Of a stretch of 64,000 nt of DNA, positions 36,934 to 46,168 are shown one piece after another. The position numbers and the translations under genes were made by a program. The notes below the pieces were generated by a model. It did no database searches. It had not been told where the DNA came from and saw only the letters and a program-made list of their open reading frames with translations. Every line of letters starts with the position of its first letter. The first letter of the stretch is position 1. This DNA comes from an uncultured Oscillospiraceae bacterium (GTDB lineage: Bacteria; Bacillota; Clostridia; Oscillospirales; Acutalibacteraceae), in assembly GCA_949292425.1 (NCBI GenBank), contig CASEZK010000058.1, positions 5 through 64,004 of the forward strand, written 5' to 3'.

Positions 36934-39315
36934 ATGGATAATTTAACAAATGAATTTTTAAGTCTGAAAAGAAAATTGATGGAAAAGTACTTTGAAAAAA
37001 TGAACGACATGCAAAAAAAAGCTATTTTTTCAACTAATGGTCCCGTACTTATATTGGCAGGTGCCGGAAGCGGAAAAACTACCGTGCTTATCAACAGGAT
37101 TACAAATTTGATAAAGTATGGTTGTGCTTATGGAGATGCAAATGTGCCGGGGTTCGTTAATCAAAAGTATGTAGATGAAATGAAGAATTGCTTAAATTCC
37201 AATAATAATGACAAAATAGAATATATATTGAAAGATTTATCGGTCTGTCCTGCTAAACCCTGGCAGATCCTTGCTATTACTTTCACGAATAAGGCTGCAA
37301 ATGAACTGAAAGATAGATTAGAAATTGCACTTGGGACCGAAACAGGTCGTGATGTATTTGCATCGACGTTTCATTCTACTTGTTCCGTTATCCTTAGGAA
37401 ATTTGCGGATAAACTTGGGTACTCACAACATTTCACTATATACGATACTGATGATTCCTATCGTCTTATAAAGGAATGCCAGAATGACTTAAATATTGAT
37501 GACAAAGTATTGTCTTATAGATCTATTTTATCTGAAATATCTAGAGCAAAAGATCAGATAATTTCCCCCGATGATTTTCGAAAAAATTCCGGGACCGATT
37601 TTAGACTATCTAATATTTCCAAAGTTTATTCTATGTACCAAAAACGCTTAGCACAGGCTGATGCTATGGACTTTGGCGATCTTTTATGTAATGTGGTTTT
37701 ACTCTTTAAAAGGTTTCCGGACATATTGGAATATTATCAAAATAGGTTTCATTACATTATGGTGGATGAATATCAGGACACAAACTTTGTGCAGTACGAG
37801 TTTATAAGGCTTTTGAGCCAAAAACATAAAAACCTGTGCGTTGTTGGAGACGACGACCAGAGTATATATAAATTCCGCGGTGCCACCATTGAAAACATAT
37901 TAAATTTTGAAAAGACTTTTAAAAACAGCACTGTCGTTAGGCTTGAGCAAAATTATAGATCCACTCAAAATATACTAAATGCAGCTAACGCCGTTATTAA
38001 AAATAACAGTTCAAGGAAACCTAAGACTTTATGGACAAAAAATAAATGCGGAAACAAAATAAATATATATACAGCTTTGAACGAAACAGATGAAGCCGAT
38101 TTTATAACTACGACTATAACAGATCAAGTTGCCAATGGGAAAAAATATTCCGATTTTGCCGTTTTGTACCGTATGAACGCACAGTCTAACAGTATTGAAA
38201 AAGTTTTTATTAAATCTGGCATACCTTATAGAATCATTGGCGGACATAGGTTCTATGAGAGAAGAGAAATCCGCGACATTATGGCATACTTAAGCGTAAT
38301 AAATAACCCAAATGACGAGATCAGACTTAAAAGAATAATTAACCAGCCAAAACGCTCTATAGGCAACAAAACTATCGAAAAGCTCTGTAACTTATCTTCA
38401 GAAACAGGCGAGTCTATACTAAACTTAATGAGAAATGCCAATGAGTATCAGTACTTATTAAGATCCTGTTCAAAGTTAAAGGCTTTTGCTAAGTTAATGG
38501 ATGAATTGATTGAGTATTTAAATAGTCCGTCGTTATCTTCTCTACATGAGTTATACGAGCAAATTTTAGAAAAAACAAACTATGTAAATTATCTTTTAGC
38601 AGAAAATGACGAAAGTGAAACCCGCATAGAAAACATCAAAGAATTGGCATCTAATATTTTGAAATTCGAGGAAGAATACGGTGAAAACGCAAATCTTTCT
38701 ACATTCCTTGAAGAAGTGGCTCTTTTAACTGACATCGATAACTACGATTCTGATTCTAACGCTGTAACGCTTATGACTATGCATTCTGCCAAAGGATTGG
38801 AATTTCCGGTGGTATTTTTGCCCGGTTTTGAGGATGGAATATTTCCAGGAATTCAGACACTTTATAACGAAGATGAAATAGAAGAGGAGAGGCGTTTAGC
38901 CTACGTGGGAATAACCAGGGCCAAAGAAGAGCTTTTAATAACTAAAGCTCAAACACGTATGCTGTTTGGTAGCACTTCTAGGTACAAACCTTCTCGCTTT
39001 TTGCTTGAAATTCCAGAAGAGCTAGTTTTATTTACCGAAAGCACAAAACACACAACAACTTCTTTTTCGCATTTTATATCAAAACCTAAAGTTGCTCCTG
39101 TTATAAAAAATTTAGGTACATATTCAAAGCCTCAACCACAGAATAAAAATTCTTACGCTTATGGAGATAAAGTTAAACATAAAATTTTCGGCGTTGGTAC
39201 AATAGTTTCTGCTACTTCCATGGGAAATGACACTTTAATTGAGATAGCTTTTGATGGTGCCGGAAACAAAAAGTTGATGGCCAATTTCGCAAAGCTAGAA
39301 AAGGTAAAAATATAA
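36934..39315 (+). CDS. pcrA: ATP-dependent DNA helicase PcrA/UvrD family
   Basis: Contains AGAGSGKTTVL, VDEYQDTN, QNYRST and MTMHSAKGLEFPVVFL. Confidence 0.92.
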   Translation: MDNLTNEFLSLKRKLMEKYFEKMNDMQKKAIFSTNGPVLILAGAGSGKTTVLINRITNLIKYGCAYGDANVPGFVNQKYVDEMKNCLNSNNNDKIEYILKDLSVCPAKPWQILAITFTNKAANELKDRLEIALGTETGRDVFASTFHSTCSVILRKFADKLGYSQHFTIYDTDDSYRLIKECQNDLNIDDKVLSYRSILSEISRAKDQIISPDDFRKNSGTDFRLSNISKVYSMYQKRLAQADAMDFGDLLCNVVLLFKRFPDILEYYQNRFHYIMVDEYQDTNFVQYEFIRLLSQKHKNLCVVGDDDQSIYKFRGATIENILNFEKTFKNSTVVRLEQNYRSTQNILNAANAVIKNNSSRKPKTLWTKNKCGNKINIYTALNETDEADFITTTITDQVANGKKYSDFAVLYRMNAQSNSIEKVFIKSGIPYRIIGGHRFYERREIRDIMAYLSVINNPNDEIRLKRIINQPKRSIGNKTIEKLCNLSSETGESILNLMRNANEYQYLLRSCSKLKAFAKLMDELIEYLNSPSLSSLHELYEQILEKTNYVNYLLAENDESETRIENIKELASNILKFEEEYGENANLSTFLEEVALLTDIDNYDSDSNAVTLMTMHSAKGLEFPVVFLPGFEDGIFPGIQTLYNEDEIEEERRLAYVGITRAKEELLITKAQTRMLFGSTSRYKPSRFLLEIPEELVLFTESTKHTTTSFSHFISKPKVAPVIKNLGTYSKPQPQNKNSYAYGDKVKHKIFGVGTIVSATSMGNDTLIEIAFDGAGNKKLMANFAKLEKVKI

Positions 39316-39699
39316 CAGCTATTTATAAATATTCCAGGTTTGACCGTGGGATATTTTAATTGCAAATTTTTCCACATTAATGCAAACCTCCAAAAACAAC
39401 CCGGAGGTTATTAACATAGCTGTAAATGTTAAAACCATATACCTAATGTTATCGTCAGTTTTCACTTGGTTTGATAAGTATTTACGTTATCTGTACTTTC
39501 ATTTGAGTTTGCTGAATTTATATTTTCAACCTGCCGTGCTATCAATGCGGCTTTTTCTTCGTCTGTTAGCATATCGATCATAGTGTAAGGGTTCACATTA
39601 CCAAATATTTTTTGTTGCCTATTTTTAGCATTTTTCTGATAAGTTCCTGGTCGTCACCGACCCGAATCAAAATCACATTTCAATGTCACTTTCATCTCA

Positions 39700-40924
39700 G
39701 CCTTATGGAATTTCGTATTCCATGTAAACTGCACCATGTAAGTCACTCTTTACTTCTTGTCCGTTCACTGTTGGGTATACTTTAAAGAGGCGAGTAGGAA
39801 AGTACCGCCTTACTGCATTTAAACAGCAGGTTTGCACAAACCTCTCACAGAATCGTGCTTACCCGTCTCTGAGTACACTGCTCCCGCTATCACTTGATTG
39901 CACTTGACTTTTTGGATGATGTATTTTAATGTGACATGCCTTGCAAACCACAATGGTTTTTCGCCGTTTAGCTATCATTGCTCGTTCCCAAATATTCTTA
40001 CCTTTGAGATTTTTCAATTTGTTAACGTGATGAATTTCATAATGTTCTGCTTCGCATGCGTCACAAGGTTCACAGGCTTTCGCCTTTAATCGTTTCTCCA
40101 TAGCATAACGAATATACTTAAATCCTTATCCGCTTGTGATTTGCACTGCGTTTTAAACAATTCCTGTTTTGCTAATTTGTATGTTTTATCAGTTCTTGTC
40201 TTTTTTTGCCGTCTGCTTCACTTATCTAGATGTTAAGCTTTTTCATCTTCCGCCTTACAACACTATACTCGTAGGTGAAGTGCTTTTCTTTGGGTTTGTT
40301 TGAGTTTTGTGCAATTCTTGCTAAAATTTTAGCCGTTGGTTGCATATGAGGTTTTCCTCCCTAATTGACTTTTATTTTAGTGCATGATAACTGCGTTACT
40401 TCGCCATGTAATGGGAATTATCTCTCAGACTACCACAGACGCTCCGTTGCCTTATCTGATATTCAGCGTCATCTTTCTCACTGTTGCTTGAAACTTATCA
40501 CCTTGCGGTATTACGCATAGTCTTTTCAGGCATTCCGCTTTAGGCAATCCCCAGTTAGTACTGTGTATTGGTTTGCAGATTGTCGGTTGTGCTTTTGTTT
40601 CATTACCACAGGTTCACCTGCAGGTTGTATGGTGTCGTCGATAACAAACTAACAGACCAATATCGTCAGTTTTTTGCCATACCAAAGGTCTCAGATATTT
40701 TCCTTTGCTCCGGCAAAAAGAGGAACTAGAAACTCACATTCATTAAATCCAAATTCAACCTCGTATCTGCTTAGCATCACAGTTCGGTCGCTTCCGAATA
40801 TCTTTAAAAGACTTACTGCTTTCCTACCATGCTTTGTTCCCGAGTCAGCTTTCGCCTTTCGGTTAGGTAGGTTGCTTCGAGTGTTATCTTACTCGGTAGT
40901 ACCTTACACTACTTTACACCGCAC
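39700..40924 (-). mobile_element. group II intron relic with internally deleted IEP (3' boundary unresolved)
   Basis: The minus strand begins GTGCGGTG at 40924, followed by about 580 nt of ORF-free, structured-looking sequence. A 38-codon ORF (40229-40345, MQPTAKILARIAQNS...) resembles an RT N-terminus. A YIRYA (YADD-region) remnant comes next, followed by an intact HNH C-terminus. Confidence 0.6.
39859..40101 (-). pseudogene. HNH endonuclease C-terminal fragment of a group II intron reverse transcriptase/maturase
   Basis: Sequence CEPCDACEAEHYEIHHVNKLKNLKGKNIWERAMIAKRRKTIVVCKACHIKIHH. No RT or X domain ORF lies upstream. Confidence 0.7.
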
Positions 40925-41649
40925 TCTACTGGGTACACGTTGCCTATTGCGATTATCAGTTTAAGGTAGTAATGATGTATAACCAAGTCATTAATTCGAA
41001 TGATGAGTTGTTTGGGCTTTTTGTGATAAATATGACTTCGTGTACTGGGTACTTTGGTCACCATAGACTATATCACCGCGAAGATTGGTATAAGATAAAT
41101 ATGCGCTCTTAATGTGCTTTTACAAATAGGATACATTTATGCCATTATCTATTTCACTCCAAGCAAGGCTGTGGCATCATAGCAATCAAATATTGATAAG
41201 ACATGCAATTTGCCATTTTTATTTCATTTCTGTTACATTCGGTAACGCAATTTCTCGAGTAACTTACCTGATGAAAATGTATTTTCTGATTTTTGTGCCT
41301 ACCTATGTAATTACGTTTGGGTTACTTTTCGAATGTTTAGAAAGTCCTATTTTCTCCACAGCACAGTAGTAGCCCTTTTACTTGCCATATTTATTTAATT
41401 TTCTTCAGTCATGTTTTTTATTTTCCCTTCTAGGATTCTTAACTCTTTTGACCTTGCTATGTTTATTTTGCTAATTTTGCTGTTTATGTTTTGGAGTATT
41501 ATTTATATTTCTTTGCTGTTATTTTTGTCTCCTAATTTTTTATCATTTTATTAAGAACATCTTATCGGTTTTTTATACTATATCAAGTTTATTGTCAAAA
41601 GATATAATAATTTATTAAACATATTGTTGTTATATGTGAAATATATGAA

Positions 41650-41678
41650 TTGACAAAATATTTGAAATAGTATATAAT
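41650..41678 (+). promoter_or_regulatory. perfect consensus sigma-A promoter
   Basis: TTGACA, 17-nt spacer, TATAAT. Confidence 0.65.
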
Positions 41679-41746
41679 TAATACGTAAGTTTTAGTTTAT
41701 CATTGCTATTTTAAAATGAACCATTATAGAAAAGGAGTAAAAATTT

Positions 41747-43105
41747 ATGAAAAAATTATTAGCTGCAATAATGTGCATTTGTTTAATTACATCAAGCATA
41801 GGCATTTCAGTATCTGCTGCAAACGAAAGTGATGATAACCATACAGATGAAACGCTTATCTCATATTTACTTAAACCTATCCCATATTTACTTAAACCAG
41901 TCTTTTGGGCAGGGTCGCTTATTGATAGCGCTGCTAAGGCAACAGCTTATTCAATTGGGATGGCTTCTCCAATTTTGATAATGATTCTAGTAAACAAATT
42001 TAGTGAACTATATAAGACGCATCAAGCAAGGGCAAACTGTGGAACTATAGACCCTGTTAGAGATCCTATTTTAGTCATAAATAAGTTAGACAGTTACCTG
42101 AAAAATGTAAAAGGGCAAGAAAAAGCCAAGGAAAAACTAAGAAATTTTGTTATAAATTTAGTAGATGAACGTAACAAAAAACTTTCTGGGATTTCTAAAA
42201 AGAAGGGAGCTAATTTAATTTATTTTGTAGGCCCGTCAGGCGTAGGAAAATCTTTATCTGCTGAGATTTTAACCAAAGTTATTACAGGGAATAATTCTCT
42301 ACCATATATAATAGAACCTTCTGATATTGATAAGGGATCTAAAAAGTCTAGTGTTGTAGAACAATTATTTGGAATGAGAGCTAAAAAAATAAATAATTCG
42401 GAATACTACGAATTGTCACCACTTTTGCTGCAACTAAAAGCTACCCCTAATATGGTAGTCATAATAAATGAATATGACAAATTACAAACTAAAGATCTAG
42501 ATGAAAAACTAAGGACTATCTTAGACCAGGGCTATGTAAAAGTAAACGGAGAAACCATAGATTGTTCACACGCAACCTTTATAATTACTTCAAACGAAAG
42601 TTTAGGTTCTATCTCGAAAGGTGCACATGAAGACGACGGTACAGGTTCTCGTACGTATGTAGAACACGACAAAGCATTCTTGAATAGAATCAAGTTTATA
42701 AATTTTGAAAACTTAAGTTTTGAACAATATAAGGAAATAGCACAAGCACCTTGTGCTGATTTACAAAAAAATTACCTAGCTTCATATAAGATATTCGTCG
42801 ATTTTAATGATGCCATAGAAAGAATAGCAGATTTAACTGAAAAGCTGAATCAGGGAGCTAGGCCAATTCAAGACTTTGTAGATAAATTAAATGAAAAGAT
42901 ATTAACCGAAGTTATTCTTAAAAATTCGAAAGACAGAAATTATGAAGGAAAAACGTACAAGGTTTCTTATGATGAGTCAAGAGAAGATTTTGTTGTAAAT
43001 GAAATAAAAAAGCCAGTTAGTGAGTCAACACAAACAGGTGAAAGTGTTGGTGCAAATGCAAATGAAGTAAATAGCAATACAATAAGCTTGCAGCAAACTG
43101 CATAA
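41747..43105 (+). CDS. signal-peptide/TM-anchored standalone AAA+ ATPase resembling ClpA/ClpB NBD2 (torsin-like architecture)
   Basis: Signal peptide MKKLLAAIMCICLITSSIGISVSA|AN, then a TM segment AYSIGMASPILIMILVNKF. Contains VKGQEKAK, Walker A GPSGVGKS, Walker B-like VVIINEYDK, sensor-1 FIITSN and FLNRI. Confidence 0.7.
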   Translation: MKKLLAAIMCICLITSSIGISVSAANESDDNHTDETLISYLLKPIPYLLKPVFWAGSLIDSAAKATAYSIGMASPILIMILVNKFSELYKTHQARANCGTIDPVRDPILVINKLDSYLKNVKGQEKAKEKLRNFVINLVDERNKKLSGISKKKGANLIYFVGPSGVGKSLSAEILTKVITGNNSLPYIIEPSDIDKGSKKSSVVEQLFGMRAKKINNSEYYELSPLLLQLKATPNMVVIINEYDKLQTKDLDEKLRTILDQGYVKVNGETIDCSHATFIITSNESLGSISKGAHEDDGTGSRTYVEHDKAFLNRIKFINFENLSFEQYKEIAQAPCADLQKNYLASYKIFVDFNDAIERIADLTEKLNQGARPIQDFVDKLNEKILTEVILKNSKDRNYEGKTYKVSYDESREDFVVNEIKKPVSESTQTGESVGANANEVNSNTISLQQTA

Positions 43106-43106
43106 T

Positions 43107-43145
43107 AAAAAAGCCAGTCATCTTTTGAAGATGATTGGTTTTTTG
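43107..43145. terminator. bidirectional intrinsic terminator between convergent genes
   Basis: ccagtcatc...gatgattgg stem flanked by an A-run and a T-run. Confidence 0.65.
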
Positions 43146-43149
43146 CTTA

Positions 43150-44142
43150 TTACTCTTCATCAAATTTTTTTATGTACTTTTTAGCTAATGGGTTCGATGA
43201 AATTGCTTTTTCAATTTGCCTATTAGAAACATGAGTATATATCTCAGTAGTGCCCAAGTTAGAATGTCCCAGTATATCCTTTAACACTCTTATATCTACA
43301 TTCCCATGCTGATACATAAGTGTAGCAGCGGTGTGTCTTAGCTTATGAACTGAATAACCCTCATTTTTCAAATTTGCTTTATTTAGGTATTTATATACCA
43401 AAGCTTGTACAGTCTTTGGACTAATTCTTTTTTTTTGTTTACTTATAAACAAAGCATTCCTATCAGCAATTCCATTCATTGGTCTAACTTTTAAATAATT
43501 TTTTATAGCACTATTGCATGCTTCATTTAAGTAAATTATTCTTTCTTTATTACCTTTTCCTGTTAATCTTAAAGTGTTGTCGGATCTTATATCGCTTAAG
43601 TTCATATTTACAAGCTCAGACAAACGCATACCGCAGTTTAAAAAAAGAGTTAATATGCAAAAATCTCTCTCTCTGTAAGTTCCAGTTACACTATTTAACA
43701 ACTCTAAGCTTTCTTCTAATGTTAAAAATTTGGGTAGTGAAGACTTCTTTTTAGGGGTATCGATTTCTTTACATGGGTTTTCATCTATTTGGTGAGTTTT
43801 ATTTGACAAAAAATTGAAAAAGGATCTTAAACATGAAATTTTTCTTGCTTTAGTGGACGAGCTATTTTTTCTTTCATAAGTAAGGTAATTAAAGTAATCG
43901 TAAATATCCGTAAGCGTAATACTTTTTACCATTTGGATATCTATATCATCAATTTTGATATCTTTAAAATTTTCAGAATTTTTGGCCTCAGAATATTTAA
44001 ACTTTTTAATATATCTGAAAAAAGTACGAAGATCTAAGTAATACTCGCTTACTGTCTTAGGTGATTTTCCTTTAATATTCAACATATAATTTAAAAAATC
44101 TTTTATAACTGGTGAGGTAATGCTAAAGTTAGGATTTTTCAT
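43150..44142 (-). CDS. tyrosine recombinase, XerC/XerD-like (start uncertain: 44142, 44184 or 44274)
   Basis: Contains HKLRHTAATLMYQHG...LGHSNLGTTEIYTHV and an N-terminal SAM-like core-binding motif (SPKTVSEYYLDLRTFFRY). Confidence 0.85.
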   Translation of the reverse strand: MKNPNFSITSPVIKDFLNYMLNIKGKSPKTVSEYYLDLRTFFRYIKKFKYSEAKNSENFKDIKIDDIDIQMVKSITLTDIYDYFNYLTYERKNSSSTKARKISCLRSFFNFLSNKTHQIDENPCKEIDTPKKKSSLPKFLTLEESLELLNSVTGTYRERDFCILTLFLNCGMRLSELVNMNLSDIRSDNTLRLTGKGNKERIIYLNEACNSAIKNYLKVRPMNGIADRNALFISKQKKRISPKTVQALVYKYLNKANLKNEGYSVHKLRHTAATLMYQHGNVDIRVLKDILGHSNLGTTEIYTHVSNRQIEKAISSNPLAKKYIKKFDEE

Positions 44143-44470
44143 TTTTATGAACCTCGCTGTTTCTATAAAATTTTCTAAGAACATTGTAACACTTTTAACT
44201 TCCAGTAAACAAGTATGATGTAGAGTATAGGTAGTACCACATAATATGCGAAAAGAATAGCTAAAATAATACAAATAGACTTACAAAAATAATGTTATAA
44301 GTGTAAAATCAATTAAGTCAACAGAGATTTTCTATTAAACGCAAATTATAATGTTGTACAGTTTTTGAAGCTCATTTCGCGTTCTTCTTTAACTAAAAAG
44401 TGATAAACTTAGCCACCTTTATGGCAGCTAAATGTTTTTTTCACAGGTGATTTCGTTAAATTGTCAGTAG

Positions 44471-46168
44471 CTACATATTCCAAAAGTTTTCTATAAAACC
44501 CATAACATCGTTCAAATCTACCTTGTGGGAATCTTTTTCACTACGAACCTTAACTTCAATTTTATTTTCAGCTAAGTTTCTTTTGCTAACTATAACTCTG
44601 ATCGGGGCTCCTAAAAGATCAGCGTCGGCAAATTGAGCTCCTGCTGCGAGGTTTCTATCGTCAAACAACACGTCGTATTTTTTTGATAACTTACTATACA
44701 ACTCGTAGCTTACGTTTTTAACTTCATCTTGGTTTAAGTTTAAAGCACATATTTCCACTTGCCATGGGGCAACGCTCTTTGGCCAAATGGGTCCTTTGTC
44801 GTCATGACTGTTTTCCACTATGCAGGCTAATAGCCTTCCTACACCTATTCCGTAGCACCCCATAACAGGATTTAACAGTTTGCCGTTTTTGTCCGTATAT
44901 GTCATATGCATAGTTTCTGTATATTTTTTGCCAAGCTGAAATATATTTCCGACCTCTATGCCCCTTCTAACTGTTAAATCACCGCCACAATGAGCACATT
45001 TATGGCTAGATTCAACTTTATAAAAGTCAAAAAACTTATGCACTGTTATATCTCTGCTCATGCTAAATCCAACTTTGTGATATCCATGCTTATTAGCGCC
45101 ACAAACTAAATTTTCTTCGCCGGCTAAAGATTTATCATATATAACTTTAAACTTAGTGTGAAAATCTTCACAAGGTCCAATATAGCCGATTTTTAATCCA
45201 TAGTCTTCCGGGTTTGGAAGTTCACGAATCTCTTCGCCAAGCATATTGCGAAGTTTAGCTTCATTTACCTGCAAGTCTCCCCTTAAAAACACGATAACAA
45301 TCTGATTAGATATCGCTGTCAAGAAAACGACAGCTTTAACTGTGTGGCTTTTACTTATGTTAAGATAGCTTGCAAGATCATCTATCGTTTTTATTTTGGG
45401 CGTATAAACTTCTTTTAGTTCCTGCGTTTGCACACTTTCTTTGTCGATATTAGAAACAGCAACTTCCATATTTGCCTTATAGTCGCAATTATCGCACAGG
45501 ACGATGGAGTCTTCACCGGCGGGAGATAAAAACATAAATTCGTGGGCTATATTTCCGCCCATCATTCCAGAATCAGAGCAGATTGAGACAACGCCGTCAA
45601 GACCAACTCTTTTAAATATATTCTCATATGCTTTATGAACTTTTTCGTAATACTGCTCGAGATCTGCTTGTGACGTATGGAATGAATAGGCATCTTTCAT
45701 AGTAAACTCACGCACTCGAATTAAACCCGCTCTAGCTCGTGGCTCATCACGGAACTTAGTTTGAATTTGGTAAACCATGAAAGGATAGTCAAGGTACGAC
45801 CTTGCTTCGCTGCGAGCCAAATGAACAACTGCCTCTTCGTGAGTCATAGCCAAGACCATATCTCTATTTGCCCTGTCTTTGAACCTCAAAAGTTCATTTC
45901 CAACAGAAGAAAATCTACCAGACTCTTTCCACAACTCTGCAGGCAATGTAACCGGCAAAAGTATTTCTTGCCCGCCTATTTTTTCCATTTCATCTCTTAT
46001 GATATTCTCTATTTTTTTTTGTATTTTCATAGCAGGAGCCAAAAGTGAATAGATCCCGCTGCCCACATTTCTTATATATCCACCTCTTAGCAGAAACACG
46101 TGGCTAGGTAAAGTTGCTTCGGCTGGCTTGTCTCGCAAGGTTCTACCTAACAATTTGCTCATTAGCAT
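44471..46168 (-). CDS. proS: proline--tRNA ligase (bacterial type with INS domain)
   Basis: Contains SKLLGRTLRDKPAEA..SH.LLLRGGYI and class II motifs. Confidence 0.93.
   Translation of the reverse strand: MLMSKLLGRTLRDKPAEATLPSHVFLLRGGYIRNVGSGIYSLLAPAMKIQKKIENIIRDEMEKIGGQEILLPVTLPAELWKESGRFSSVGNELLRFKDRANRDMVLAMTHEEAVVHLARSEARSYLDYPFMVYQIQTKFRDEPRARAGLIRVREFTMKDAYSFHTSQADLEQYYEKVHKAYENIFKRVGLDGVVSICSDSGMMGGNIAHEFMFLSPAGEDSIVLCDNCDYKANMEVAVSNIDKESVQTQELKEVYTPKIKTIDDLASYLNISKSHTVKAVVFLTAISNQIVIVFLRGDLQVNEAKLRNMLGEEIRELPNPEDYGLKIGYIGPCEDFHTKFKVIYDKSLAGEENLVCGANKHGYHKVGFSMSRDITVHKFFDFYKVESSHKCAHCGGDLTVRRGIEVGNIFQLGKKYTETMHMTYTDKNGKLLNPVMGCYGIGVGRLLACIVENSHDDKGPIWPKSVAPWQVEICALNLNQDEVKNVSYELYSKLSKKYDVLFDDRNLAAGAQFADADLLGAPIRVIVSKRNLAENKIEVKVRSEKDSHKVDLNDVMGFIENFWNM

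What the first reader, a model, noticed from the sequence alone, without database searches (positions are those of the whole stretch)
41650..43105. Signal-peptide/TM-anchored standalone ClpB-NBD2-like AAA+ protein (torsin-like) behind a perfect consensus promoter
The 452-aa protein starts with a cleavable-looking signal peptide (VSA|AN) and a tandem peptide repeat (ISYLLKP/IPYLLKP, from a 16-nt DNA repeat at about 41865-41905). A TM helix follows, then a single AAA+ module. Its motifs parallel Hsp100 NBD2: V.GQ..A, GPSGVGKS, VVIINEYDK, FIITSN, FLNRI. The Walker B Asp is replaced by Asn (NE instead of DE). A lone NBD2-type module tethered to the membrane is reminiscent of eukaryotic torsins and is not a standard bacterial Clp architecture. 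The gene is driven by TTGACA-17-TATAAT and lies in a mobile-element-scarred islet.
Basis: partly seen in the sequence, partly recalled or inferred. Interest (0 to 1): 0.65.

Follow-up and report, generated by a model that had tools for sequence, protein, structure and literature searches.

The report
Membrane-anchored single-ring Clp-type ATPase
The gene encodes a real but uncharacterised protein from uncultured gut Clostridia: one ClpB/ClpC-type ATPase module tethered to the cell membrane, with an unusual but conserved active-site change; it copies the domain order of eukaryotic torsins but is not a torsin relative.

Summary
A 452-aa ORF (41747-43105, +) lies behind the only 12/12 TTGACA-17-TATAAT promoter in the region and ends at a strong terminator. 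It encodes a signal-peptide-like N-terminus, a variable segment with a tandem repeat (21 nt x2, not 16), a hydrophobic helix and one AAA+ module.

By sequence and by predicted fold the module is an Hsp100 second nucleotide-binding domain (ClpC, ClpB, Skd3). It belongs to a small family of about 150 clusters at 50% identity. Every named source is an uncultured Clostridia, Eubacteriales or Ruminococcaceae MAG, apart from one 'Bacilli bacterium' label. No dedicated Pfam or NCBIfam model exists.

The Walker B Asn is family-wide. It co-varies with loss of the ClpB 'Arg621' magnesium-switch arginine. The Walker A Lys, catalytic Glu, sensor 1, Arg finger (FLNR) and sensor 2 (GAR) stay nearly invariant, so a working but re-tuned ATPase is likely. 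An invariant DDGTGSRT loop sits where ClpA/C/X carry their ClpP-docking loop.

Torsin likeness is architectural only. The family profile scores TorsinA 8 bits against 85 for ClpC, and torsin's defining losses are absent. The ATPase is most likely cytoplasmic.

No family-wide gene partner exists. One subclade is always preceded by a sugar-phosphate transferase gene. The function remains inferred.

The parts
41650..41678 (+). Sigma-70-type promoter, TTGACA-17 nt-TATAAT
   Evidence: 12/12 match, the only one in 39300-44500. Near-consensus promoters (11-12/12) lie 30-70 nt upstream of homologues in at least 10 other sequence groups.
41733..41737 (+). Shine-Dalgarno AGGAG, 9 nt before the ATG
   Evidence: Read from the sequence.
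41747..43105 (+). CDS, 452 aa: membrane-anchored single Hsp100-D2-type AAA+ protein
   Evidence: ORF. Pfam AAA_2 1.1e-10. ClpC/ClpB/Hsp104 NBD2 by sequence and by fold. An identical protein, P0001, occurs in a metagenome contig.
41747..41818 (+). Residues 1-24: Sec-type signal peptide or N-terminal anchor (MKK, h-region, VSA|AN)
   Evidence: Best 12-mer KD 2.89. The same layout is found in all short family members. Cleavage was not tested.
41857..41898 (+). 21-nt tandem duplication encoding ISYLLKP/IPYLLKP in the variable, presumably extracytoplasmic segment
   Evidence: The segment has no consensus across the family, and the repeat is absent from P0002 and P0003.
41942..41992 (+). Residues 66-82: second hydrophobic segment, the putative membrane-spanning helix
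   Evidence: 17-mer KD 1.86, with a net positive C-side flank. An equivalent segment lies mostly 70-100 aa before Walker A in the 58 members examined, but is weak (KD about 1 or less) in several. It sits within a predicted helix at residues 58-98.
42230..42253 (+). Walker A GPSGVGKS (162-169)
   Evidence: K168 is present in 244 of 244 aligned family sequences.
42455..42481 (+). Walker B VVIINEYDK (237-245): Asn241 replaces the Asp, Glu242 is kept
   Evidence: Position 241 is N in 156, D in 73 and E in 15 of 249 sequences; E242 is present in 242.
42593..42595 (+). Sensor 1 Asn283 (TSN)
   Evidence: Present in 247 of 249 sequences; aligns with the ClpC/ClpB TSN.
42632..42655 (+). Invariant DDGTGSRT loop (296-303) between sensor 1 and the Arg finger
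   Evidence: Invariant or nearly so. It aligns with the ClpC segment that holds the ClpP-docking loop. Local pLDDT falls to about 73.
42686..42688 (+). Arg314 of FLNR, the equivalent of the ClpB NBD2 arginine finger
   Evidence: Present in 242 of 244 sequences. T. thermophilus ClpB Arg747 is the proposed Arg finger (PMC3940203). Its position in FLNR was counted from a recalled sequence.
42713..43006 (+). Residues 323-420: ClpB-D2-small-type lid domain with sensor 2 (GAR, R372 at 42860-42862) and a C-terminal beta-hairpin
   Evidence: Pfam ClpB_D2-small 0.0013, below the cut-off; 1.7e-8 in homologue P0004. Strands 403-409 and 414-420 are predicted. R372 is present in 223 of 239 sequences.
43007..43102 (+). 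Residues 421-452: low-complexity tail, predicted disordered
   Evidence: pLDDT below 50 for 426-452. Tails vary in length and sequence among homologues.
43108..43144 (.). Intrinsic terminator hairpin shared with the convergent recombinase gene
   Evidence: 17-pair stem followed by a T-run.
43150..44142 (-). Xer-family tyrosine recombinase, 330 aa as called (ORF open to 44274), convergent neighbour
   Evidence: TIGR02224 XerC 5.8e-66, 223 bits, below the 335-bit cut-off. The same pair occurs next to P0003 and P0006.
39789..40101 (-). Group II intron remnant: HNH-type ORF plus domain V/VI. It is an upstream neighbour, not part of the gene.
   Evidence: RF00029 34.6 bits, E 1.8e-4; ORF; frames shattered upstream.

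Best explanation
The gene encodes a membrane-anchored AAA+ ATPase built from a single Hsp100 (ClpB/ClpC) second-domain module. It is made from its own strong promoter as a monocistronic message.

Most likely path (inferred):
1. The N-terminal signal peptide or anchor takes the N-terminus across the membrane.
2. A short, fast-evolving segment stays outside.
3. The second hydrophobic helix returns the chain, so the ATPase sits in the cytoplasm directly under the membrane.
4. As in its Hsp100 relatives, it assembles into a ring. Because the tether leaves from the N-terminal side of the module, the face that is the substrate entry side in ClpB/ClpC looks at the membrane.
5. The opposite, cytoplasmic face displays six copies of the invariant DDGTGSRT loop, at the place where ClpA/C/X dock ClpP.

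It probably binds and hydrolyses ATP with altered magnesium handling: Walker B Asn, together with loss of the ClpB Arg621-type switch. It would use that cycle to remodel or extract a membrane-associated client, with a cytoplasmic partner docked on the loop. A link to cell-envelope glycopolymer assembly is the best lead, but a weak one.

Shown: gene, signals, motifs, family, fold class, conservation pattern, neighbourhoods. Inferred: topology, ring formation, hydrolysis, client and partner.
For: Identity:
- AAA_2 and NBD2-only matches to ClpV, ClpB and ClpA models, far below their cut-offs.
- ClpC at 85 bits with the family profile.
- AlphaFold model with pLDDT 84.8 whose top 50 PDB matches are all ClpC, ClpB, Skd3 or ClpA second domains.

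Family:
- 153 clusters at E<=1e-30 among 1.84 billion representatives.
- Named sources are almost all uncultured Clostridia, Eubacteriales or Ruminococcaceae MAGs.

Active site under selection:
- K168, E242, N283, R314 and R372 are nearly invariant.
- R or K at the ClpB Arg621-equivalent position occurs 20 times, all with Walker B Asp and none with Asn (156 sequences). The role of Arg621 is taken from PMC3940203.

Topology:
- Short members have a signal-peptide-like start.
- A second hydrophobic segment lies mostly 70-100 aa before Walker A, mostly with a net positive C-side flank.
- A helix is predicted at residues 58-98.
- In the clade with a long N-terminal extension, the equivalent first helix follows a +9 cluster and has no cleavage motif, which fits an in-to-out anchor.

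Own transcription unit: perfect promoter and terminator, with 11-12/12 promoters in many homologues.

Envelope lead:
- A Bac_transf gene lies 164-180 bp upstream on the same strand in 5 sequence groups (6 counting a tandem second copy), within four different flanking contexts.
- In places it is accompanied by LytR_cpsA_psr, a GT2 glycosyltransferase, VanY, LiaF or Amidase_3.
Against: - No topology predictor could be run. The second hydrophobic segment is weak (17-mer KD about 1 or less) in several members.
- The canonical aromatic pore-loop-1 motif (GYVG) is not conserved. The query has KKIN there and other clades have Tyr/Gly-rich loops, so classical threading is uncertain.
- A Walker B Asp-to-Asn change usually cripples hydrolysis in engineered AAA+ mutants (general knowledge).
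- The Bac_transf link is confined to one subclade. It is absent from this 64-kb window and from the query's closest relatives.
- No partner gene is conserved family-wide.
- The 'transcriptomic' runs that hold the locus gave evenly covering long contigs and say nothing about expression.
Confidence: 0.45

Rival explanations
1. Nucleotide-switch or scaffold protein. The Asn in Walker B abolishes turnover, and the protein works as an ATP-bound assembly platform at the membrane rather than as a motor. This is mechanistically closer to torsin, which needs a partner to hydrolyse.
For: Asn241 replaces the magnesium-coordinating Asp in 156 of 249 family sequences. The pore-loop-1 aromatic motif is not conserved. 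The invariant DDGTGSRT loop could recruit an activating partner.
Against: The catalytic Glu, sensor 1, Arg finger and sensor 2 are all nearly invariant, which is not expected in a site that no longer hydrolyses. Asp and Asn forms coexist within one family with the rest of the site unchanged. Unlike torsin, the family has its own Arg finger.
Confidence: 0.2
2. A membrane-tethered unfoldase that feeds ClpP or another cytoplasmic protease, that is, a membrane version of ClpC or ClpX.
For: The closest solved relatives are ClpC second domains from ClpC-ClpP complexes. A conserved loop occupies the ClpP-docking insertion point.
Against: The loop is DDGTGSRT, acidic and polar, with no hydrophobic IGF/IGL-type tripeptide. 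No clpP or other protease gene recurs nearby in 27 sequence groups.
Confidence: 0.1
3. Cargo of a mobile element or an anti-phage defence gene, for example a DolB-like ClpB-type ATPase of a Dodola-type system.
For: PADLOC DolB matches at 3.8e-7. A recombinase and a group II intron scar are adjacent. GC is slightly lower (29-32%) than in the flanking housekeeping genes.
Against: The DolB match covers only the P-loop region, residues 113-182. The recombinase is Xer-like over its full length, and the pair is conserved in different chromosomal settings among housekeeping genes. No flanking att-like repeats were found. No family member occurs in 72,556 plasmids or 50,697 phage records. No defence-type partner gene recurs.
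Confidence: 0.07
4. A truly torsin-like exported ATPase. The signal peptide is cleaved, the second hydrophobic stretch is only a monotopic membrane association, and the AAA+ domain works outside the cytoplasmic membrane.
For: It has the same order as torsin: signal sequence, hydrophobic region, NBD2-like module. The second hydrophobic segment is weak in several members. The Walker B context NEYDKMH in many members resembles torsin DEMDKMH.
Against: There is no ATP supply outside a monoderm cell (general knowledge). The flank on the C-side of the helix is net positive in most members. Sequence and fold place it far closer to ClpC and ClpB than to torsin. The Arg finger and GAR sensor 2 are present.
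Confidence: 0.05

Closest known systems
Hsp100/Clp second nucleotide-binding domain (ClpC, ClpB, Hsp104, ClpA, ClpE D2; human CLPB/Skd3 as a natural single-NBD2 protein)
   Same: - Same fold, and the best matches by sequence and by structure.
- A GQ..A motif before the P-loop, Walker A GP(S/T)GVGK(S/T), a TSN sensor 1, an FLNR arginine, a GAR sensor 2 and a D2-small lid with a C-terminal hairpin.
   Different: - Only one AAA+ module, with no N-domain, first NBD or middle domain.
- N-terminal signal/TM tether.
- Walker B Asn, together with loss of the Arg621-type residue.
- No GYVG pore loop.
- A new invariant DDGTGSRT loop.
- Scores far below every NCBIfam Clp cut-off, for example 53.7 against 885 bits for ClpV.
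Torsins (eukaryotic ER-lumenal AAA+, Pfam PF06309)
   Same: - Same order of parts: signal sequence, hydrophobic region, single NBD2-derived module.
- No canonical pore-loop motif.
- A DK(M)H context after Walker B.
   Different: - No Pfam Torsin hit, and 8.2 bits with the family profile.
- Homology is detectable only over the large subdomain.
- It has its own Arg finger and GAR sensor 2 instead of Gly-Cys-Lys, and a ClpB-type small domain.
- It is probably cytoplasmic rather than lumenal.
FtsH and Msp1/ATAD1 (membrane-anchored single-ring AAA+ machines that pull proteins out of membranes)
   Same: An N-terminal membrane anchor followed by one AAA+ ring whose entry face looks at the membrane. 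FtsH also has two helices with a loop outside. This comparison rests on general knowledge and is an analogy of layout only.
   Different: Those proteins belong to the classical AAA clade and have aromatic pore loops, and FtsH carries an M41 protease. Here the module is of the Hsp100 D2 type, there is no protease domain and the pore loop is variable.
DolB of the Dodola defence system (PADLOC PDLC03838)
   Same: A short ClpB-like single ATPase, with a weak profile match.
   Different: The match is restricted to residues 113-182, and no DolA-like neighbour or defence context is present.

Membership tests
Hsp100/Clp clade of AAA+ (NBD2-type module) | AAA_2-type P-loop domain with Walker A, a Walker B catalytic Glu and sensor 1 Asn | tested here: met
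   PF07724 1.1e-10, 42.3 bits, above the cut-off of 27. K168, E242 and N283 are nearly invariant. The Walker B Asp is replaced by Asn.
Hsp100/Clp clade of AAA+ (NBD2-type module) | Trans-acting arginine (FLNR) and sensor 2 arginine (GAR) in a D2-small lid | tested here: met
   R314 in 242 of 244 and R372 in 223 of 239 sequences. D2-small scores 0.0013 in the query, below the cut-off, and 1.7e-8 in P0004. The fold matches ClpB NBD2 over about 325 columns.
Hsp100/Clp clade of AAA+ (NBD2-type module) | Aromatic-hydrophobic pore loop 1 (GYVG) | tested here: not met
   The aligned position reads KKIN in the query, and the region is variable across the family.
ClpB / ClpC / ClpA / ClpV (named two-ring Clp ATPases) | Two AAA+ modules plus an N-domain; score above the NCBIfam equivalog cut-off | tested here: not met
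   Only the NBD2 part of the models is matched: 53.7, 45.5 and 38.3 bits against cut-offs of 885, 1232 and 993.
ClpP-partnered unfoldases (ClpA/C/E/X) | Hydrophobic IGF/IGL-type tripeptide loop between sensor 1 and the Arg finger | tested here: not met
   The loop at that position is DDGTGSRT.
Torsin (PF06309) | Match to the Torsin profile | tested here: not met
   No hit at E<=1. The family profile gives TOR1A 8.2 bits. hhalign gives 75% probability over 146 columns.
Torsin (PF06309) | No intrinsic arginine finger, so activation comes from LAP1/LULL1 (PMC4999309) | tested here: not met
   R314 at the ClpB Arg-finger position is nearly invariant.
Torsin (PF06309) | Gly-Cys-Lys sensor II with a redox cysteine (PMC4999309) | tested here: not met
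   The sensor II is QGARP.
Torsin (PF06309) | AAA+ domain on the non-cytoplasmic side of the membrane | not testable with these tools
   Hydrophobicity and charge heuristics favour a cytoplasmic domain. No topology predictor or experiment was available.
Dodola DolB | Full-length match and a DolA partner gene | tested here: not met
   The match is partial, covering residues 113-182 only. No recurrent partner was found.

The most novel reading that the evidence does not exclude
The family is a previously unrecognised kind of bacterial membrane machine. It would be a Clp-type ring hanging under the membrane that uses a naturally re-wired magnesium site (Asn for Asp, no Arg621 switch) and a new docking loop (DDGTGSRT) to hand membrane-derived clients to a cytoplasmic partner. 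In part of the family this would be coupled to the first step of cell-wall glycopolymer synthesis. That would make it a bacterial functional counterpart of Msp1 or torsin-type membrane AAA+ proteins, which arose independently from the Hsp100 second domain.
Probability: 0.2. Interest if true: 0.7.

Novelty: new variant of a known kind. Interest (0 to 1): 0.5.

Why it matters
Clp/Hsp100 ATPases are among the best-studied protein machines, yet no membrane-tethered single-ring form is described in the libraries searched. That covers Pfam, NCBIfam, PADLOC, PHROGs, PDB and four literature searches.

The family offers a natural experiment on the AAA+ active site. Walker B Asp-to-Asn is paired with loss of the arginine that gates magnesium in ClpB, while every other catalytic residue is kept.

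It also shows that the torsin-like layout (signal sequence, hydrophobic segment, NBD2 module) has arisen in bacteria independently of torsins. This bears on how torsins could have originated.

The practical impact is limited for now. All carriers are uncultured gut Clostridia and the client is unknown.

Tried and rejected
1. Torsin membership was rejected: the Pfam, profile, hhalign and Foldseek tests all favour Hsp100 D2.

2. In the long-N-terminus clade (P0109-P0120) the first 85 aa looked from memory like a Nif11-type double-glycine leader (...ISGG). Neither Pfam nor NCBIfam supports this, so the idea was dropped.

3. Domain fusions in the ten longest family members gave nothing beyond AAA domains.

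4. Expression evidence failed. Two runs labelled 'transcriptomic' from mouse gut hold the locus, but as long contigs covering genes and spacers evenly. They are not usable.

A motif-specific DNA pattern (DDGTGSRT...HDK) in metagenome contigs added 15 loci.

6. The neighbour census over 27 sequence groups found no family-wide partner. Tyrosyl-tRNA synthetase, an MgsA-type ATPase and BipA each recur in 3 groups and look like lineage synteny.

7. Plasmid and phage collections held only ordinary Clp genes at 25-30% identity.

8. No att-like direct or inverted repeats flank the gene-recombinase pair.

9. Literature searches for bacterial torsin-like or membrane-anchored NBD2 proteins found nothing relevant.
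Full report
**The observation**

The window holds an ORF at 41747-43105 (+) of 452 aa.

TTGACA-17-TATAAT at 41650-41678 is the only 12/12 promoter match in 39300-44500. The overall number of weaker matches there is at background level. An AGGAG box lies 9 nt before the ATG. A hairpin with a 17-pair stem and a T-run (43108-43144) follows the stop and is shared with the convergent downstream gene. The gene is therefore a self-contained transcription unit.

One detail needs correction. The DNA repeat behind ISYLLKP/IPYLLKP is a 21-nt tandem duplication (41857-41898, 20/21 identical), not a 16-nt repeat.

**What the protein is**

- Pfam finds AAA_2 (1.1e-10) and, weakly, the ClpB D2-small lid.
- NCBIfam models for ClpV, ClpB and ClpA match only with their second-domain portions. 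Scores of 38-54 bits compare with cut-offs of 885-1232.
- The best solved relatives are ClpC, ClpB, Hsp104 and ClpE second domains. With a family profile, ClpC reaches 85 bits.
- An AlphaFold model built on 59 family sequences has mean pLDDT 84.8. Its 50 best PDB matches are all ClpC, ClpB, Skd3 or ClpA second domains over about 325 columns.

The module is thus an Hsp100 NBD2 with its lid, standing alone.

**The family**

The protein is not an orphan. A word-indexed search found 150 relatives of mostly 430-780 aa. An exhaustive profile search of 1.84 billion representatives found 153 clusters at E<=1e-30.

Every named source is an uncultured Clostridia, Eubacteriales, Ruminococcaceae or Acutalibacteraceae MAG from gut samples, apart from one 'Bacilli bacterium' label. 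The window's own sequence recurs in mouse, rat and manure metagenomes. Source names are generic or wrong: 'AAA family ATPase', 'hypothetical protein', 'type VI secretion ATPase ClpV1 family'. None of the four libraries searched (Pfam, NCBIfam, PADLOC, PHROGs) has a model specific to this family.

**Shared anatomy**

1. A signal-peptide-like start: MKK, a hydrophobic core, and a small-x-small motif.
2. A segment of 30-250 aa without any consensus.
3. A second hydrophobic stretch, mostly 70-100 aa before Walker A, mostly with a net positive C-side flank.
4. The AAA+ module.
5. A variable low-complexity tail.

Some genomes carry two copies, in tandem (L005, L016) or a few kb apart. One clade replaces the cleavable-looking start by an 85-130 aa extension. 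That extension is followed by a helix preceded by a +9 charge cluster, which fits an in-to-out anchor. Together these points favour a hairpin or type I topology with the ATPase in the cytoplasm. This is a heuristic inference, because no topology predictor was available, and in several members the second segment is only weakly hydrophobic.

**The active site**

Asn at the Walker B Asp position is the majority state: N 156, D 73, E 15 of 249 sequences. K168, E242, sensor 1 N283, R314 and sensor 2 R372 are nearly invariant.

In T. thermophilus ClpB NBD2 the proposed Arg finger is Arg747. A conserved Arg621 sits between the Walker A Thr and the Walker B Asp and controls magnesium binding (PMC3940203). 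Counting from sensor 1 Asn709 in the ClpB sequence as I recall it puts Arg747 in FLNR, which corresponds to R314 here. In the alignment to ClpC, the Arg621-equivalent is I188.

Across the family, Arg or Lys at that position occurs 20 times. All 20 are with Walker B Asp, and none of the 156 Asn-type sequences has it. These counts are not phylogenetically independent, but the pattern is clean. The Arg-Asp pair was lost together while the rest of the catalytic set stayed. That points to a re-tuned, still working site rather than a decayed one.

**Two further peculiarities**

First, the GYVG pore loop is not conserved. The query has KKIN followed by YY, and other clades carry Tyr/Gly-rich loops.

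Second, an invariant DDGTGSRT..HDK(A/S)FLNR stretch lies between sensor 1 and the Arg finger. In the ClpC alignment this is the segment with the ClpP-docking loop. From general knowledge, the ClpP-binding helix-loop-helix of ClpA was grafted at this same site of ClpB to make the ClpP-binding 'BAP' variant. The loop here is acidic and polar and has no IGF/IGL tripeptide, so ClpP docking is unlikely. Conservation this strong on the face away from the membrane suggests a different partner.

**Torsin comparison**

The TorsinA sequence I recalled was verified against PDB chains for residues 51-332. Four tests were run:

- Pfam Torsin gives no hit at E<=1.
- The family profile gives TorsinA 8.2 bits.
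- hhalign gives 75% probability, E 2.5e-5, over 146 columns of the large subdomain only.
- No torsin is in the Foldseek top 50.

Torsins lack an Arg finger, have a Gly-Cys-Lys sensor II and lack a pore-loop motif (PMC4999309). This family shares only the last of these. The resemblance is one of layout, reached independently from the same Hsp100 D2 stock.

**Genomic setting**

The window is chromosomal. It carries an S10 leader, RNase P RNA and tRNAs. PcrA lies upstream and ProS downstream of the locus.

Between PcrA and the promoter lies a decayed group II intron. It consists of a domain V/VI match below the gathering score, an HNH ORF, and frames broken by stops. Longer copies at higher depth occur in the same metagenomes.

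The convergent neighbour is a full-length Xer-type recombinase, scoring 223 bits against XerC, below the equivalog cut-off. The same ATPase-recombinase pair occurs next to P0003 (60% identical) and, with an amidase gene between them, next to P0006. The outer flanks differ in each case.

Nothing marks the pair as mobile. There are no flanking repeats. No family member is found in the plasmid or phage collections.

**Neighbour census**

Over 27 sequence groups no partner is shared by the whole family. The strongest signal is a small Bac_transf sugar-phosphate transferase gene 164-180 bp upstream on the same strand. It occurs in 5 groups (6 counting the tandem second copy in L005) and in four different outer contexts.

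In the widespread Clostridium sp. CAG:557 clade, a convergent LytR_cpsA_psr gene follows the ATPase gene. Other loci have VanY, a GT2 glycosyltransferase, LiaF or Amidase_3 nearby, and two have FtsEX-PcsB genes nearby.

This gives a lead towards cell-envelope biogenesis. It is confined to one subclade, however. Neither gene is present in this window.

Many homologues share the strong private promoter, 11-12/12 matches at 30-70 nt upstream.

**Verdict**

The finding is real and correctly read as a membrane-tethered lone NBD2-type ATPase with a Walker B Asn. The torsin label should be dropped in favour of 'single-ring Hsp100-D2 family with an N-terminal membrane anchor'.

The most likely mechanism is an ATP-driven ring under the membrane acting on a membrane-associated client, with a partner docked on the DDGTGSRT loop. 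This rests on inference from anatomy and conservation, and I give it 0.45. Identity and family placement are secure.

It is a new variant of a known kind and of moderate interest. The main attraction is the naturally altered active site and the new docking loop. The main limitation is the absence of any functional handle in cultured organisms.

Noticed in passing
window 39789-41600 (-): A decayed group II intron: domain V/VI at 39789-39885, an HNH-type ORF at 39859-40101, and reverse-transcriptase frames full of stops. In two mouse-gut runs, contigs at 2-3 times the local depth match pieces of it with 769 extra letters between them, so fuller copies exist in the same community.
   Followed up: partly
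window 43003-43017 and 43104-43118: An exact 15-nt repeat, AATAAAAAAGCCAGT, 101 nt apart. One copy lies inside the CDS where the folded domain ends (EIKKPV). The other forms the left arm of the terminator. This may be a trace of how the disordered 32-aa tail was added.
   Followed up: no
L005, L006, L007, L008, L018-L021 (about 170 bp upstream of the ATPase gene): In one subclade a small Bac_transf gene always precedes the ATPase gene at a nearly constant 164-180 bp, although the outer flanks differ. In the Clostridium sp. CAG:557 clade, a LytR_cpsA_psr gene and a 657-aa multi-pass membrane protein without Pfam hits follow.
   Followed up: partly
P0109-P0120 (e.g. L022 6001-7899): One clade carries an extra 85-130 aa N-terminal region ending in ...ISGG, then a signal-peptide-like stretch. 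Most of it keeps Walker B Asp. From memory the start resembles Nif11-type double-glycine leaders, but neither Pfam nor NCBIfam supports that.
   Followed up: partly
P0194, P0203, P0241 (profile search periphery): Proteins of about 1000 aa with two or three tandem AAA_2 plus D2-small units. Their first unit passes the Pfam Torsin gathering score on a partial stretch (39-52 bits, profile positions 13-78). They are not part of this family, and their origin was not examined.
   Followed up: no
L005 8454-11356; L016 5584-8746; L004/L014: Several genomes carry two paralogues, in tandem or a few kb apart. The members of a pair differ in their outer segments.
   Followed up: no
L004, L010, L033 (150-261 bp from the ATPase gene): A tyrosyl-tRNA synthetase gene lies directly beside the ATPase gene in three sequence groups, in different orientations. 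This is probably lineage synteny.
   Followed up: no
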